A stretch of DNA of 64,000 bases from a virus (Duplodnaviria > Caudoviricetes), in the IMG/VR virus record IMGVR_UViG_3300037067_007801, positions 23,604-87,603 of that record, one strand, 5' to 3'. Each line of letters begins with the position of its first letter. The first letter of the stretch is position 1. Below, in pieces: positions 32,659-36,119 of this stretch. Position numbers and translations under genes: made by a program. The notes under the pieces were generated by a model, which was given only the letters and a program-made list of their open reading frames with translations, was not told the origin of the DNA and made no database searches.

Positions 32659-32982
32659 ATGGCGATGGTACCAGGCAGCATCACGATCGACCCGGGAACG
32701 GGTGCCGACAGCGGGACTGGTTGCTCCTACGAGTTGTTTCAAGACTTCAACGCGAAGGTCGATTACGGAACAGCGACCGGTACGACGTTGGCCATTGCCA
32801 AGCAGCAGGTCGCCGACCTGTGCGAGAGCATCGGACAAGTCATTGTCACGCACATCGGTGTCAACGCCAAGGCCAAGGTCACGGCGACCGACGCCGGTCT
32901 CCAGTTGCTACCCGCGGCACCGATGGCTGAGGATGACGAGTGCAAGGCGCCGGCCGCTACCAAGTACCTGGGCATCGAGTGA
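32659..32982 (+). CDS. hypothetical baseplate-region protein
   Basis: ORF 107 aa with GGAGG RBS. Confidence 0.7.
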   Translation: MAMVPGSITIDPGTGADSGTGCSYELFQDFNAKVDYGTATGTTLAIAKQQVADLCESIGQVIVTHIGVNAKAKVTATDAGLQLLPAAPMAEDDECKAPAATKYLGIE

Positions 32983-32985
32983 GCC

Positions 32986-33291
32986 ATGACGTACTGTGCC
33001 TTCCCACCGATACCGATCCCTGCGTTCGCGCTCCCTGCGATTCCGCTTCCCGCACTTCCGAGCTTCGTCATCCCGACGTTGCCAAATCTGCCAGGGCTCC
33101 CGATGATAGCGATCCCGGCGTTCACTTTGCCAGCGATACCGATCCCGGGGCTGCCGAGTTTTTCCATCCCATCATGGTCAAGCCTGCCGGGTTTGCCGAT
33201 GATTCCGATCCCGGCGTTCGCTCTGCCTGCCATCCCCTTCCCGGCACTCCCTAGTTTTACGATCCCGTCTCTGTTTTGCGTTCTGGACTAG
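32986..33291 (+). CDS. Pro-rich hydrophobic repeat protein (32-aa unit x ~2.8)
   Basis: IPIPAFALPAIPLPALPSFVIPTLPNLPGLPM-type repeats, terminal Cys at both ends. Confidence 0.65.
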   Translation: MTYCAFPPIPIPAFALPAIPLPALPSFVIPTLPNLPGLPMIAIPAFTLPAIPIPGLPSFSIPSWSSLPGLPMIPIPAFALPAIPFPALPSFTIPSLFCVLD

Positions 33292-33320
33292 AAACGATAC
33301 AGAAAAAACAGGTCAGTTTC

Positions 33321-33377
33321 CCCACCTACAAACCCTAAACTTTATCACTTGACACCATCAACCAAAGGGTTTATATA
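33321..33377 (+). promoter_or_regulatory. early-class promoter/operator driving Cas7-like/array cassette (class E, copy 2)
   Basis: TTGACA(33349)-17bp-TATATA with TCAACC-AAAG-GGTTTA; upstream CCCACCTACAAA..AAACTTT shared at identical spacing with 52953-53009. Confidence 0.85.
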
Positions 33378-33409
33378 CCTCTCATGGTCATCTAACAGGA
33401 GGGTACGAA

Positions 33410-34075
33410 GTGGCACACAGAACGAAGAGGGTAACACTCACCGGGTTGACTCCGCTCATCATGCACAAGGACGGGATGGACTTCGAGGGTCGCATCAAGT
33501 CGTGGCGCATGAACCCGGCGAACAAAGACTTGCAGGTCAAGGGCGACGACCGTTCCCCCGCGTGGACGTGGATTGGCAGCGTCTACCACGACGGGAAGAT
33601 GGTCGGCATCCCGAGCGACAACATCATGACGGTGTTGCGAGAGGGCGGAACGAAGGTCCCGACCGGCAAGCGACAGGGGACGTTCAAGCGCCAGTCGCAG
33701 ACGGGAATCATCGTCATGGAACCGCTATGGCTGTTGACGACGGCGGAAGGAAACCAAGTCGAAATCGCCGACATCAACGTCATGCTCGACGAGACCGATT
33801 TCGACAAGCAGGTGGAGGCGGCGCGCAAACTCAACATCTCCCTGTTCGTCAAGCGCGCAAAGTTGGCGACCTCGAAGAACGTTCGCGTGCGTCCCATGTT
33901 CGCAGCCGGGTGGAATATCAGCGGGACGGTCAGCATCACGGACAACAGCATCACGGACAGCGTGTTCTCGGACATCCTCATGATGGCCGGGGACCTGAGC
34001 GGCCTGTGCGACTGGCGTCCGAGTTCTCCGAAATCGCCGGGACCTTACGGAAGGTTCACGGCGGAGGTGAAGTAG
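33410..34075 (+). CDS. Cas7/RAMP-like protein (putative VIPR effector, Vipr)
   Basis: N-terminal VTLTGLTPLIMH (RAMP tPl strand), IPSDNI, C-terminal G-rich loop AGDLSGLCDWRP...GPYGRF; AGGAGG RBS; immediately followed by GGY-NN array. Confidence 0.8.
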   Translation: MAHRTKRVTLTGLTPLIMHKDGMDFEGRIKSWRMNPANKDLQVKGDDRSPAWTWIGSVYHDGKMVGIPSDNIMTVLREGGTKVPTGKRQGTFKRQSQTGIIVMEPLWLLTTAEGNQVEIADINVMLDETDFDKQVEAARKLNISLFVKRAKLATSKNVRVRPMFAAGWNISGTVSITDNSITDSVFSDILMMAGDLSGLCDWRPSSPKSPGPYGRFTAEVK

Positions 34076-34081
34076 ACACGC

Positions 34082-34766
34082 GGTTCTCGGCGCGGCCAGG
34101 CACGGCGAGCCGGGGTGTGGCACGGTCCGGCAAGGCAAGGAGCGTGGTCCGGATGGGCATGGCACGGCGAGTCGAGGCACGGCGAGGCACGGTTCCTGGC
34201 AAGGCAGGGCGAGGCCGGGCGCGGTCCGGCAAGGTGAGGATCATGGACGGCAGGGCATGGCGGGTCCAGGTGCGGCGAAGCAGGGCCGGGCGTGGCAAGG
34301 ATCGTGACACGGCGCGGTGCGGTGAGGTTGTGCGTGGCAAGGCGAGGTTCCAGGTAGGTCTGGGCCAGGTGCGGCGTGGCTGTGCTAGGCGAGGGTTAAG
34401 GCATGGCAGTGCGCGGCAGGGTCGGGCATGACACGGTGTGGCAAGATTTGGATAGGTTGGGAATGGCAAGGTTGGGTAGGGCGAGGCAAGGAACTGGGTG
34501 TGGCGCGGTGTGGCATGGTCGGGTCCGGTACGGAGCGGCCTGGCAAGGCGAGGATCGTGGCGTGTCAGGGTTAGGTAGGGCACGGTGTGGTGAGGCGAGG
34601 AACGCGGTGCGGCGGGATCAGGTTAGGCATGGTGTGGCCTGGCGCGGCGAGGAACGGGGTGAGGCATGGTTCGGTGCGGCACGGCAGGGCGGGGAAAGGC
34701 GAGGATCCCGGCAAGGTGGGGTGAGGCGTGGTCAGGCAAGGCAAGGTGTGGCGCGGCAAGGAACAT
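34082..34766 (+). ncRNA. GGY-NN pentamer array (putative VIPR guide-RNA array), 12 units
   Basis: Manual parse: 118 pentamers, 100 begin GGC/GGT with variable last two bases; units of 8-11 pentamers (one 18) separated by 7-nt junctions GGA-N4/GGTTC-N2/GGGTTAA. Confidence 0.85.
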
Positions 34767-34790
34767 GGTACAATTTCTAAGGAGGAAAAC

Positions 34791-35246
34791 GTGAGCAAGT
34801 CGAAAATGTACTTCGGTGGTGTTCCGACGGAGCCGGATGTTCGGCGACTGTTGGACAGATATGGGCGTCCGCAGCAAGGCCAGGTGATGGCCTACGACGA
34901 GGTGGCAACCGTCGTCGGGATTCGGCGCGAAGACTCTCGGTTCAAGACCGTGACAAATGCTTGGCGCAAGGCCATCTATTCGAGCTACAACATCGTCATC
35001 GGCACGCGACCGGGGGTTGGATTCGTCGCCCTACAGGAACCGGAGAGACTGGACTACGGCTCGCGGAAGTTTCGGTGTGGAATTCGCCAGATCAAGAGAT
35101 CGCACGGCGTGATCTCCGGGTGTGACGAAATGAAACTCACTCCGGAACAACGCGGCCACAAGCAGCACGACGAGATGGTTTCGGCTCACTTGATATTGGC
35201 CGGGCGTCTGGAAGCCAGACGCTTGCAGTCATCGAGTGGAAAGTAG
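34791..35246 (+). CDS. small basic accessory protein downstream of array (possible wHTH)
   Basis: GTG 34791 after GGAGG; 151 aa Arg/Lys-rich; YDEVATVVGIRREDSRF helix-turn-helix-like segment. Confidence 0.75.
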   Translation: MSKSKMYFGGVPTEPDVRRLLDRYGRPQQGQVMAYDEVATVVGIRREDSRFKTVTNAWRKAIYSSYNIVIGTRPGVGFVALQEPERLDYGSRKFRCGIRQIKRSHGVISGCDEMKLTPEQRGHKQHDEMVSAHLILAGRLEARRLQSSSGK

Positions 35247-35255
35247 AGGGACCCA

Positions 35256-36119
35256 ATGGACTGGTTCAAACTCCCGATTCTCATCCTCATCCTAGGCCTC
35301 CCCACGTGCTCCCCAATCGATTTCCAGGCCGGACCCCTCCCACCCATACAAGACGGTGGTTCAGACGACTCCACGGACTCCCAAACCGACACCATTGAGG
35401 ATTCCGGGACCGACGGTGACAGCGATTCGGACACGGACGTGGACAGCGACACGGACACGGGGCCGGATACTGGCACCGAGACTGACACCGAGAGTGAAAC
35501 TGGAAGCGACACGGACACCGACGTCGACACAGACACAGACACAGACACAGACACGGACTCGGATACCGATACCGATACCGATACCGAGATCCCGGACCCG
35601 TGCACTGGTCCAGGCACATGGCTCGACGATGGTTGGTGGTTCGACTTCCTCCCGGACTATCCGGGCGGCGATATGACGTACCTTGGCACCCGTTGTTGGC
35701 AGGACCCGCCGGCTCCGGAACTCATGGAGTGGACCGCGGCCGTGGACTACTGCGCTGACCTCGTGCTCGCCGGGTACGACGACTGGATCCTGCCCGACGT
35801 CAACCAGCTCCGTTGGCTCGGGCGGCCGACCACATGGGAGTGTGCCGACTGCGGGCTGATTGCTCCTGACCATCTGGCCGAGTCGGACATCGAAGACTGC
35901 GAGGCGTGCCTGCCGTTGTTCGGTGGGGCTGGTGCTGGAGGATGTTACTGGGATCCTGCACTGGGCGGAACATGCTCCTACTACTGGAGTTCTTCGGAGC
36001 AGTCCGGGTATCCACTTAACCGAGTATGGGGCTGGTCGTTCGCCGGAAATGACCCCGGACTCGTCGCGTCCAACAAGACCGGATCGCTTGGCTACACTCG
36101 CTGCGTGAGGTCGCTGTGA
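35256..36119 (+). CDS. putative lipoprotein with Asp-Thr repeat linker and DUF1566/Lcl C-terminal domain
   Basis: Hydrophobic N-terminus ending LGLPTC; (DT)n; WTAAVDYCADLVLAGYDDWILPDVNQLR...YYWSSS...VWGWSF...TRCVR. Confidence 0.85.
   Translation: MDWFKLPILILILGLPTCSPIDFQAGPLPPIQDGGSDDSTDSQTDTIEDSGTDGDSDSDTDVDSDTDTGPDTGTETDTESETGSDTDTDVDTDTDTDTDTDSDTDTDTDTEIPDPCTGPGTWLDDGWWFDFLPDYPGGDMTYLGTRCWQDPPAPELMEWTAAVDYCADLVLAGYDDWILPDVNQLRWLGRPTTWECADCGLIAPDHLAESDIEDCEACLPLFGGAGAGGCYWDPALGGTCSYYWSSSEQSGYPLNRVWGWSFAGNDPGLVASNKTGSLGYTRCVRSL
35395..35590 (+). repeat. hexamer tandem repeats encoding Asp-Thr/Ser linker
   Basis: GACACA/GACACG/GATACC runs. Confidence 0.9.

What the first reader, a model, noticed from the sequence alone, without database searches (positions are those of the whole stretch)
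34082..34766. Array grammar: 12 guide-sized units separated by 7-nt phase-breaking junctions; decoded NN strings
My manual parse gives junctions GGTTCTC(34082), GGAGCGT(34139), GGTTCCT(34191), GGATCAT(34238), GGATCGT(34299), GGTTCCA(34346), GGGTTAA(34393), GGAACTG(34490), GGATCGT(34552), GGAACGC(34599), GGAACGG(34651), GGATCCC(34703), GGAACAT(34760). Units contain 10,9,8,10,8,8,18,11,8,9,9,10 pentamers (100/118 start GGY) and almost all end in GGCAA/GGCGA. NN strings: U1 gc-ca-ac-ga-gg-gt-ac-cc-aa-aa; U2 cc-tg-at-ac-ga-ga-ac-ga-ac; U3 aa-ag-ga-cg-gc-cc-aa-ga; U4 ag-at-gg-ca-gc-ga-ag-cg-gt-aa; U5 ac-gc-gc-ga-tg-gt-aa-ga; U6 ag-tg-ca-gc-gt-tg-ta-ga; U7 at-ag-gc-ag-cg-at-ac-gt-aa-tt-ta-tg-at-aa-tg-ag-ga-aa; U8 gt-gc-gt-at-cg-cc-ac-gc-ct-aa-ga; U9 gt-ag-ta-ag-ac-gt-ga-ga; U10 gc-gg-ca-ta-at-gt-ct-gc-ga; U11 ga-at-tc-gc-ac-ag-gg-aa-ga; U12 aa-gg-ga-gt-ca-aa-aa-gt-gc-aa. 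Every unit differs, which fits encoded information better than slippage of a satellite. The junctions are inferred processing or filament-termination sites. U7 may be two fused units, and its AT-rich second half could target a promoter.
Basis: partly seen in the sequence, partly recalled or inferred. Interest (0 to 1): 0.9.

Follow-up and report, generated by a model that had tools for sequence, protein, structure and literature searches.

The report
Phage VIPR guide-RNA array
This 685-base stretch is a real array of about a dozen five-base-repeat guide RNAs belonging to a phage VIPR system, a CRISPR-related DNA-silencing system first described in 2026, so it is a new example of a published kind and not a new kind of element.

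Summary
Window 34082-34766 (+) is the only 5-nt-periodic GG tract in the window.

The upstream 221-aa gene (33410-34075) is a Vipr protein. It has a Cas7-like fold, and its profile hits PDB 36pp 'SUSP1 Vipr protein' at E 7.6e-16. All five G1/G2-contacting residues and one of the five Y3-pocket residues are conserved. The downstream 151-aa gene is a winged-helix accessory (Vap-like).

53 of 57 IMG/VR loci with a homologue carry such arrays, always on the gene strand. This matches VIPR (bioRxiv 10.64898/2026.04.26.720920 and two companion preprints).

The 7-nt junction (GGWWC+NN, preceded by GGCRA) is conserved in 27 of 57 relatives, with spacings of 5k+2. It stands where SUSP1 has a ~40-nt pseudoknot tail. 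I could not tell whether this compact, tail-less layout is described in the preprints.

Relatives about 90-93% identical in the flanking genes carry unalignable arrays, and no two units share more than 2 NN. Simple duplication is therefore excluded.

No target was found: exact 1-nt-skip scans gave chance-level hits. No RNA data exist, so processing at the junctions is inferred.

This scan had already read the same stretch, and an earlier follow-up on the neighbouring gene also reached VIPR.

The parts
33410..34075 (+). vipr: 221-aa Vipr protein (stand-alone RAMP / Cas7-like)
   Evidence: AF2 model has pLDDT 88. Foldseek best hits are type VII Cas7, Csm3 and Cas7-11, E down to 2e-7. The profile of 22 homologues hits PDB 36pp 'SUSP1 Vipr protein' at E 7.6e-16; pairwise E is 4e-4. 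H19, R161, D201, W202 and R203 align with SUSP1 H17, R138, D177, W178 and R179. H17, D177, R138 and W178 contact G1 and G2; R179 is one of five residues forming the Y3 pocket.
34082..34766 (+). vrRNA array: 12 units (13 if U7 is split) of 8-11 GGYNN pentamers, bounded by 13 junctions
   Evidence: It starts 6 nt after the vipr stop codon and ends 24 nt before the vap start codon. It has no Rfam match, and no sigma-70-like promoter or + strand terminator-like site lies inside it.
34082..34088 (+). First junction (GGTTC+TC). The others are at 34139, 34191, 34238, 34299, 34346, 34393, 34490, 34552, 34599, 34651, 34703 and 34760. Consensus is GGWWC+NN, usually preceded by GGCRA.
   Evidence: The motif and its +2 phase shift are conserved in relatives.
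34400..34489 (+). U7, an 18-pentamer unit, probably two units joined through a degenerate in-phase junction (GATTT at 34445-34449). The second half is AT-rich, with purines at several Y positions.
   Evidence: This is inference from its position after GGCAA.
34767..34790 (+). Short spacer with the ribosome-binding site (AAGGAGG) of the next gene. There is no structured tail after the last unit.
   Evidence: Sequence.
34791..35246 (+). vap-like accessory gene, 151 aa: N-terminal winged helix plus a long helical hairpin
   Evidence: A homologue lies beside vipr and the arrays in 46 of 57 related loci, in varying gene order. AF2 pLDDT is 94. Foldseek gives weak but consistent hits to OmpR/PhoB, CadC, ToxR, GntR and BirA winged-helix DNA-binding domains. 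No Pfam or PHROG family matches.

Best explanation
The tract is the guide-RNA (vrRNA) array of a phage-borne VIPR system made of vipr (33410-34075), the array (34082-34766) and a winged-helix accessory gene (34791-35246).

Proposed mechanism, with the basis of each step:
- The three parts are transcribed together on the + strand. This is inferred from the 6-nt and 24-nt gaps and the lack of a promoter or terminator between them.
- One Vipr protomer binds each pentamer. Neighbouring protomers clamp G1, G2 and Y3 and expose N4 and N5. This is shown for SUSP1 Vipr and inferred here from conserved contact residues.
- Each unit of 8-11 pentamers therefore presents 8-11 dinucleotides. These pair with double-stranded DNA that carries the same dinucleotides separated by one skipped base, on either strand. 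Binding silences the target, presumably in a competing phage, satellite or prophage.
- Units are delimited by a conserved GGCRA-GGWWC-NN junction, not by the ~40-nt pseudoknot tail seen in SUSP1. The junction inserts two extra bases, usually with a purine where the pyrimidine-only Y3 pocket expects C or T. I infer that this breaks the 5-nt register, so that filaments stop and/or the RNA is cut there.
For: - Protein partner: Cas7-like fold. Profile hit to the solved SUSP1 Vipr, E 7.6e-16. The GG(Y)-contact residues are conserved (read against 10.64898/2026.04.26.720927).
- Array grammar: strong GG, weaker Y, free NN, as published for vrRNAs.
- Linkage: 53 of 57 IMG/VR loci with a homologue have period-5 GG arrays next to the gene, all on the gene strand and none on the other. 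The same holds for most of 23 prophage loci in named bacteria. Distant Cluster F mycobacteriophages pair a GGCNN array with a homologue carrying the DWRPSxPKS motif.
- Accessory gene: conserved next to vipr in 46 of 57 loci, with a winged-helix fold, as reported for vap genes of types II, VI and VII.
- Junction: GGCRA-GGWWC occurs 208 times on the gene strand and 10 on the other. 105 of 124 spacings are 2 mod 5. GG follows GGWWC+NN in 179 of 197 cases. 27 of 57 loci share the layout.
- Information content: units are unrelated to each other. Arrays are replaced between strains with 90-93% identical flanks, and are identical in two independent metagenomes. Relatives with 88-96% identical Vipr have the same grammar with different NN.
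- No self-target in the 87.6-kb genome above what 0-, 2- and 3-nt skip controls give, as the preprint reports for its systems.
Against: - No natural target was found, so the guide function of these particular units is not demonstrated.
- Six of the 13 guides were scanned exactly against IMG/VR, and one of those also against JGI metagenomes. The hit counts fit chance.
- The one 18/18 match (L060) puts the skipped base on codon position 1, not the wobble position. Its flanking NN do not extend, and no other guide matches that 52-kb phage.
- Several units have only 6-7 clearly variable dinucleotides once the near-constant GGCAA/GGCGA pentamers are set aside. That is shorter than the 9-16 repeats described.
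- There is no structured 3' tail, which SUSP1 vrRNAs have.
- Expression, processing and Vipr binding are all untested here.
Confidence: 0.9

Rival explanations
1. The array is a decoy or competitor array. Its RNAs mainly soak up or redirect the Vipr protein of a rival phage and do not guide the phage's own Vipr, like the 'solo vrRNAs' of SUSP1 satellites and relatives.
For: Such solo arrays are described (10.64898/2026.10.15.759431). No target was found for any unit here.
Against: The array lies 6 nt after its own vipr gene, in one operon with vap. The same three parts travel together in most relatives. Solo arrays are defined by the absence of a nearby vipr.
Confidence: 0.04
2. The tract is a non-functional pentanucleotide satellite made by replication slippage or duplication. 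It persists next to the gene by chance or hitch-hiking.
For: It is a tandem short-period repeat. Some pentamers are degenerate (19 of 119 are not GGY), and U7b looks decayed.
Against: Tandem Repeats Finder sees only two 2-copy 10-nt scraps. NN entropy is near maximal while GG is fixed. Units share no NN runs. Strand and position relative to vipr are conserved in 53 of 57 loci across many phyla. The sequence is identical in two independent metagenomes.
Confidence: 0.02
3. The tract is protein-coding. ORFs of 125-360 aa run through parts of it, and the equivalent tract in mycobacteriophage Donkeykong is annotated as gene 48.
For: Open frames exist on both strands because the sequence is poor in T and A. 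GenBank annotates the Cluster F tract as a hypothetical protein.
Against: No frame spans the array. Unit lengths are 5k+2 and not multiples of 3. Conservation has period 5, not 3. Array length varies freely between close relatives. A strong ribosome-binding site appears only after the last unit.
Confidence: 0.02
4. The tract is a DNA-level or RNA-level structural element, such as a run of two-tier G-quadruplexes or an R-loop-prone G-rich tract. It would act in replication or transcription independently of Vipr.
For: GC skew is 0.34 over this kilobase. GG-N3-GG spacing could form two-tetrad quadruplexes. The RNA fold z-score is -2.7.
Against: This does not explain the pyrimidine at position 3, the conserved junction, the strict co-occurrence with a RAMP whose relative is solved on exactly this repeat, or the hypervariable NN.
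Confidence: 0.02

Closest known systems
Type II VIPR of Escherichia phage SUSP1 (Vipr, vap1, four vrRNAs; PDB 36pp; bioRxiv 10.64898/2026.04.26.720920, 10.64898/2026.04.26.720927, 10.64898/2026.10.15.759431)
   Same: Small stand-alone RAMP protein with the same GG(Y)-contact residues. GGY/NN pentamer guides on the gene strand. A small accessory gene predicted to bind DNA. Phage-borne, with no CRISPR-like repeat array within the examined 33000-36000 stretch (the whole window was not scanned for cas genes). No self-targeting.
   Different: The proteins are related only at profile level: tblastn does not find SUSP1, pairwise E is 4e-4 and profile E is 7.6e-16. The Vap has no BLAST-detectable SUSP1 relative. 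Here 12 guides are packed in 685 nt, with a 7-nt junction in place of a ~40-nt pseudoknot tail. Units are 47-62 nt against ~100 nt. The array lies between vipr and vap.
'Staggered' vrRNA arrays (fig. S18 of 10.64898/2026.04.26.720920). Probably the layout I see in Cluster F mycobacteriophages (Cheoctovirus Donkeykong, BobaPhett).
   Same: Tail-less, back-to-back units whose boundaries are marked only by a break in the 5-nt register. A Vipr homologue is adjacent.
   Different: In the mycobacteriophages the break is a 4-nt GGCA step (-1 phase, one shared G). Here it is a 7-nt GGWWC+NN step (+2 phase). The figure is not held, so I could not check which layouts it covers. The preprint says the staggered type lacks sRNA-seq confirmation.
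Hairpin-tailed arrays in other branches of the same Vipr family (e.g. L040, L044, L047, L055; Pseudorhodoferax sp. Leaf274 prophage L205)
   Same: Vipr 42-49% identical to the window protein, the same vap family, and GGYNN units of similar length.
   Different: Each unit ends in a short hairpin (GGGGCCGTATGGCC or GGGCGYCAATGGCGC) plus a spacer, not in the GGAAC junction.
Class 1 CRISPR-Cas backbone (Cas7/Csm3/Cmr4 filaments on crRNA)
   Same: Same protein fold. One protomer per repeat of the guide. A thumb flips bases periodically. Several guides are made from one array.
   Different: Period is 5, not 6. Three guide bases are hidden for every two exposed. There is no repeat-spacer array, no cas1/cas2, no Cas6 and no nuclease. 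The guide information is interleaved with the repeat and not placed between repeats.

Membership tests
VIPR system | Vipr protein: a minimal RAMP (RRM core, G-loop, thumb) homologous to characterised Vipr | tested here: met
   Foldseek to Cas7/Csm3, E 2e-7. hmmsearch of the family profile hits PDB 36pp SUSP1 Vipr at E 7.6e-16; pairwise E is 4e-4.
VIPR system | Residues that read G1, G2 and Y3 (SUSP1 H17, R138, D177, W178, R179) | tested here: met
   They align with window H19, R161, D201, W202 and R203, which are invariant or nearly so in 22 homologues. Residue roles are taken from 10.64898/2026.04.26.720927. H17, D177, R138 and W178 read G1 and G2. R179 is one of five Y3-pocket residues. Of the other four, E71, M72 and T175 could not be aligned, and SUSP1 C173 aligns with a serine (S197) in the window protein.
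VIPR system | vrRNA: tandem GGYNN (YNNGG) repeats with conserved GGY and hypervariable NN, beside vipr on its strand | tested here: met
   100 of 119 pentamers are GGY, and the NN positions carry 0.23 and 0.04 bits. The array starts 6 nt after vipr. 53 of 57 related loci show the same, and none has an array on the opposite strand.
VIPR system | 9-16 repeats per vrRNA | tested here: inconclusive
   Units have 8-11 pentamers (18 in U7). Once the near-constant terminal GGCAA/GGCGA pentamers are discounted, some have only 6-7 variable NN. The mature RNA ends are unknown.
VIPR system | Conserved structured 3' tail (pseudoknot in the SUSP1 clade) | tested here: not met
   Only a 7-nt GGWWC+NN junction separates the units, and only 24 nt follow the last unit. 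Rfam finds nothing. The preprint states that array architecture varies between types, so a tail does not define the family as a whole.
VIPR system | Small accessory gene (vap) with a predicted DNA-interacting fold | tested here: met
   The 151-aa gene is conserved beside vipr in 46 of 57 loci. It has a winged-helix N-terminal domain. Homology to a named vap1-6 could not be tested.
VIPR system | Targets follow the 1-nt-skip rule (NNxNNx) in other mobile elements | tested here: inconclusive
   Exact scans of six guides in IMG/VR and one in JGI metagenomes gave chance-level, unrelated hits. There was no skip-1 excess in 1 Mb of related loci.
VIPR system | No self-targeting | tested here: met
   Best skip-1 matches in the 87.6-kb genome are 61-83% of NN, the same as for the 0-, 2- and 3-nt skip controls.
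VIPR system | vrRNAs are expressed, processed and co-purify with Vipr | not testable with these tools
   No RNA run holds this DNA.
VIPR type II (SUSP1 / P. fulva clade) | Vipr phylogeny, vap1 and tailed vrRNAs of that clade | tested here: not met
   Homology to SUSP1 Vipr is only at profile level. tblastn finds neither the Vipr nor the Vap in SUSP1. There is no tail. Which of the seven types this clade belongs to cannot be decided without the preprint's data files, which are not held.
CRISPR-Cas class 1 | Repeat-spacer array, 6-nt guide periodicity and a cas operon | tested here: not met
   Period is 5. Within 33000-36000 there is no CRISPR-like repeat. The neighbours are tail and baseplate genes plus a lipoprotein. 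The whole window was not scanned for cas genes.

The most novel reading that the evidence does not exclude
The GGCRA-GGWWC-NN junction may be a boundary signal for vrRNAs that has not been described. It is a +2 break of the 5-nt register, usually with a purine in the pyrimidine-only Y3 slot. On this reading it stops Vipr filament growth and/or marks a cleavage site, replacing the pseudoknot tail and allowing a dozen guides in under 700 nt. The two bases after GGWWC would then be the first guide dinucleotide of the next unit. Together with the -1 (GGCA) break in Cluster F mycobacteriophages, this would make 'phase break as punctuation' a general rule for tail-less VIPR arrays.
Probability: 0.3. 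Interest if true: 0.5.

Novelty: new member of a known kind. Interest (0 to 1): 0.35.

Why it matters
The finding adds a complete, compact VIPR cassette from an uncultured 87.6-kb groundwater/landfill phage to a family described only in 2026.

It also shows that a large branch of that family (at least 1270 proteins in the collection, spread over many bacterial phyla) often uses tail-less arrays punctuated by a 7-nt register break. If the junction sets guide boundaries without a structured tail, it gives a simpler rule for building multiplexed synthetic vrRNA arrays. It would also explain how filament length is set.

The same grammar occurs in a prophage of the isolate Geothrix campi SG10, which makes the question testable at the bench.

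Apart from that, the result is confirmatory.

Tried and rejected
- Rfam scan of 33000-36000 at E up to 1: nothing, so no hammerhead-interspersed array.
- Pfam and PHROGs: only phrog_4652 'unknown function' for the Vipr, and nothing for the Vap.
- RNA evidence: no RNA holder was listed for this DNA, so small-RNA ends could not be mapped.
- Self-target search in the whole 87.6-kb genome under 0-3 nt skips: all at chance.
- 276 guides from 57 loci against about 1 Mb of related loci under 0-3 nt skips: identical score distributions.
- Exact 1-nt-skip IMG/VR scans:
  - U8 (18 specified bases): 1 hit.
  - U12: 0 hits.
  - U4: 0 hits.
  - U2: 0 hits.
  - U11 (16 specified bases): 5 hits.
  - U1 (16 specified bases): 4 hits.
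- JGI metagenome scan with U12: 18 hits.
- A 14-base core that recurs in relatives' arrays (CC-AG-GG-GT-TT-TA-AG): 117 hits.
- All these hits lie in unrelated genes. The flanking NN do not extend the matches, and no two guides hit one contig.
- The only 18/18 hit's whole 52-kb phage (G001) was fetched and scanned with all guides: nothing above shuffles.
- A 9-NN guide of the Geothrix campi SG10 prophage: no hit in its own genome with up to 3 mismatches, nor in 133 genomes of its family with up to 1 mismatch.
- NN dinucleotide composition against codon-phase models built from the phage's own genes: a uniform model fits as well, so this is uninformative.
- The VIPR preprint's supplementary files are not held, so the type (I-VII) and the exact 'staggered' layout could not be checked.
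- I first considered TRAP-like RNA sponges, ribosome standby sites, R-loop origins and G-quadruplex tracts. I dropped them once the protein linkage and the literature were found.

Full report

Yes. Within 34082-34766, 66% of GG dinucleotides have another GG exactly 5 nt downstream (58% at +10, 54% at +15). Other lags give 3-19%. A sliding scan of both strands of the 64-kb window flags only this tract.

The exception is U4, which is 54 nt: its junction is GGATC+A followed by an off-consensus TGGAC.

I count 100 of 119 pentamers as GGY. Information content is 1.72, 1.51, 0.81, 0.23 and 0.04 bits at the five positions. Ten of 12 units end in GGCAA or GGCGA.

Tandem Repeats Finder sees only two short 10-nt scraps here. 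The tract is periodic but not repetitive in the usual sense. No two units share more than two consecutive NN dinucleotides.

**2. Surroundings**

The tract starts 6 nt after the stop codon of a 221-aa gene (33410-34075). It ends 24 nt before the GTG start of a 151-aa gene (34791-35246), which has a strong ribosome-binding site. No sigma-70-like promoter or + strand terminator-like site lies between them. The contig is an 87.6-kb virus record.

**3. The clue from relatives**

A low-stringency blastn hit Cluster F mycobacteriophages. These hold a GGCNN array followed by a gene whose C-terminus (DWRPSxPKSxGxYGR) matches the window's 221-aa protein.

The family is large: at least 1270 proteins, with no Pfam domain. 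Of 57 IMG/VR loci encoding a homologue, 53 carry period-5 GG arrays directly beside the gene. All are on the gene strand and none on the other. Prophages in many bacterial phyla show the same pattern.

**4. Identification**

[quoted passage not shown] It describes VIPR systems:

- A small ancestral RAMP protein (Vipr) works with vrRNAs made of 9-16 YNNGG repeats.
- The NN dinucleotides pair with DNA that has one skipped base after every two.
- These systems are mostly phage-encoded and are aimed at competing phages and satellites.

Companion preprints give cryo-EM structures (10.64898/2026.04.26.720927) and infection biology (10.64898/2026.10.15.759431). A language-model survey recovers VIPR arrays by their 5-nt entropy period (10.64898/2026.10.21.760802).

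**5. Membership tests**

*The 221-aa protein.*
- The AF2 model (pLDDT 88) matches type VII Cas7, Csm3 and Cas7-11, with E down to 2e-7.
- The profile of 22 homologues hits PDB 36pp 'SUSP1 Vipr protein' at E 7.6e-16. The single sequence gives E 4e-4.
- The printed alignments place SUSP1 H17, R138, D177, W178 and R179 opposite window H19, R161, D201, W202 and R203. All are invariant or nearly so in the family.
- According to the structure paper, H17, D177, R138 and W178 hold G1 and G2, and R179 is one of five residues forming the Y3 pocket. The other Y3-pocket residues (E71, M72, C173, T175) were not confirmed here; C173 aligns with a serine.

*The 151-aa gene.*
- It has homologues beside vipr in 46 of 57 loci, in three different gene orders.
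- It folds (pLDDT 94) into a winged helix plus a long helical hairpin.
- This fits the DNA-binding vap genes reported for types II, VI and VII.

*Distance from SUSP1.* tblastn finds neither protein in SUSP1, so this is a distant branch. I could not assign the type because the preprint's data files are not held.

**6. The grammar of the array**

The junction is conserved. Across 58 loci the motif GG[CT][AG]A-GG[AT][AT]C occurs 208 times on the gene strand and 10 on the other.

In the 56 loci other than the window:
- 105 of 124 motif-to-motif spacings are 2 mod 5 (42, 47, 52, 57, 62, 67 or 72 nt).
- GG follows GGWWC+NN in 179 of 197 cases.
- The junction pentamer is GGAAC 152 times, GGATC 35 times and GGTTC 8 times.
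- 27 of 57 loci have three or more such motifs.

There are N+1 junctions for N units, so each unit is flanked on both sides.

Read in the preprint's YNNGG register, the junction is a WW dinucleotide inserted between GG and C-NN-GG.

Other branches of the same protein family end each unit with a short hairpin instead. Cluster F mycobacteriophages use a 4-nt GGCA step, a -1 shift. That is probably the 'staggered, 1-nt overlapping' layout of the preprint's fig. S18.

The window's compact +2 layout has no structured tail. I could not establish whether the preprint shows it.

The structure paper reports that two neighbouring protomers share each GGY and that the Y3 pocket excludes purines. A 7-nt step with A at position 3 should therefore interrupt the filament. 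That step is my inference, not a result.

**7. Information or slippage?**

- NN entropy is near maximal in the window and in 3460 pentamers of relatives.
- Phages with 88-96% identical Vipr keep the handle and change the NN. A few partly shared guide cores recur in different phages.
- Laying metagenome contigs on the locus shows the array is identical in an independent landfill sample.
- In two relatives about 90-93% identical in vipr and vap, the array does not align at all. One of them has about 390 nt where the window has 704.
- This is the behaviour of a guide cassette, not of a satellite.

**8. Targets**

This part failed.

- No unit matches the phage's own genome better than controls with 0-, 2- or 3-nt skips. 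That agrees with the preprint's report of no self-targeting.
- Exact 1-nt-skip scans of six guides in IMG/VR and one in JGI metagenomes gave 0-5 and 18 hits. These lie in unrelated genes and their neighbouring NN do not extend the match.
- A 14-base core from relatives gave 117 hits. That calibrates the chance rate at roughly 0.5 hits per 18-base pattern, which is what I saw.
- The single 18/18 hit puts the skipped base on codon position 1, and no other guide matches that phage.
- A guide from the Geothrix campi prophage found nothing in its own genome or in 133 genomes of its family.
They are weak, and they neither support nor refute targeting.

**9. Expression**

No RNA run holds this DNA, so processing at the junctions remains untested.

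**10. Verdict**

The locus is a new member of a known kind.

The part that may add something is the tail-less, register-breaking punctuation. It is conserved in about half of this protein family's loci and can be tested in a cultured carrier.

Earlier notes of this scan on the same genome reached the same identification for the neighbouring gene. I found the preprint independently. From those notes I took only the pointer to PDB 36pp, which I then checked.

Noticed in passing
L001:2880-3230 (Mycobacterium phage Donkeykong NC_051648, gene 48) and L002:2905-3160 (BobaPhett, gene 51): The GGCNN pentamer array of these Cluster F (Cheoctovirus) phages is annotated as a hypothetical protein. The next gene (gp49 / gp52) is a Vipr homologue. 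Units are separated by a 4-nt GGCA step (-1 phase). This is probably a mis-annotated VIPR locus in the early lytic region.
   Followed up: partly
H10/H11: Gordonia phage Trine MH271318, 32270-32824 (-), gene 41: This is the only cultured-phage tblastn hit of the window Vipr (26% identity over 97%, E 1e-4). It is a likely VIPR carrier among Gordonia phages. I did not look for its array.
   Followed up: no
L202:2630-2990 (Geothrix campi SG10, NZ_JANHMP010000002) and L205 (Pseudorhodoferax sp. Leaf274, NZ_LMNA01000029): Both are cultured isolates carrying prophage VIPR loci of this protein family. Geothrix has the same GGAAC+NN compact grammar (5 units). Pseudorhodoferax has units with long hairpin-containing tails. 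They are possible bench systems.
   Followed up: partly
L040:3700-4010, L044:3230-3700, L047:4660-5150, L055:4630-4950: In other branches of the same Vipr family each unit ends in a short hairpin (GGGGCCGTATGGCC or GGGCGYCAATGGCGC) followed by a 10-25-nt spacer. Array punctuation therefore differs within one protein family.
   Followed up: partly
L006:1742-2061, L009:5137-5833, L010:1219-1662: A guide core (GGTCC GGCAG GGCGG GGCGT GGCTT GGCTA...) recurs in several units of three phages with 92-96% identical Vipr, and twice within L009 with different 3' continuations. It suggests repeated selection for one target region, or unit duplication with divergence. No target was found for it.
   Followed up: partly
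window 33009-33266 (ORFs 32986-33291 + and 32763-33233 -): A 96-nt tandem repeat (2.7 copies, 72% match) lies just upstream of vipr. It is open on both strands: a Pro/Ile/Leu-rich 101-aa frame on + and a Gly/Ile/Ala-rich 156-aa frame on -. I did not resolve which frame, if either, is real.
   Followed up: no
window 35256-36119 (+): A 287-aa protein directly after vap has a long Asp/Thr/Ser-rich low-complexity stretch (a 6-nt repeat, about 23 copies, at 35428-35563) and a C-terminal Lcl_C domain (PF07603, E 6e-9). It looks like a secreted or lipoprotein-like cargo gene sitting between the tail and baseplate genes.
   Followed up: no
window 33300-35300, laid contigs of runs X3 (landfill) and X4 (wastewater): Relatives about 90-93% identical in vipr and vap exist in other habitats, with entirely different arrays that keep a GGTTC/GGAAC junction right after the vipr stop codon. 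An identical copy of the whole cassette is present in an independent landfill metagenome (X2).
   Followed up: partly
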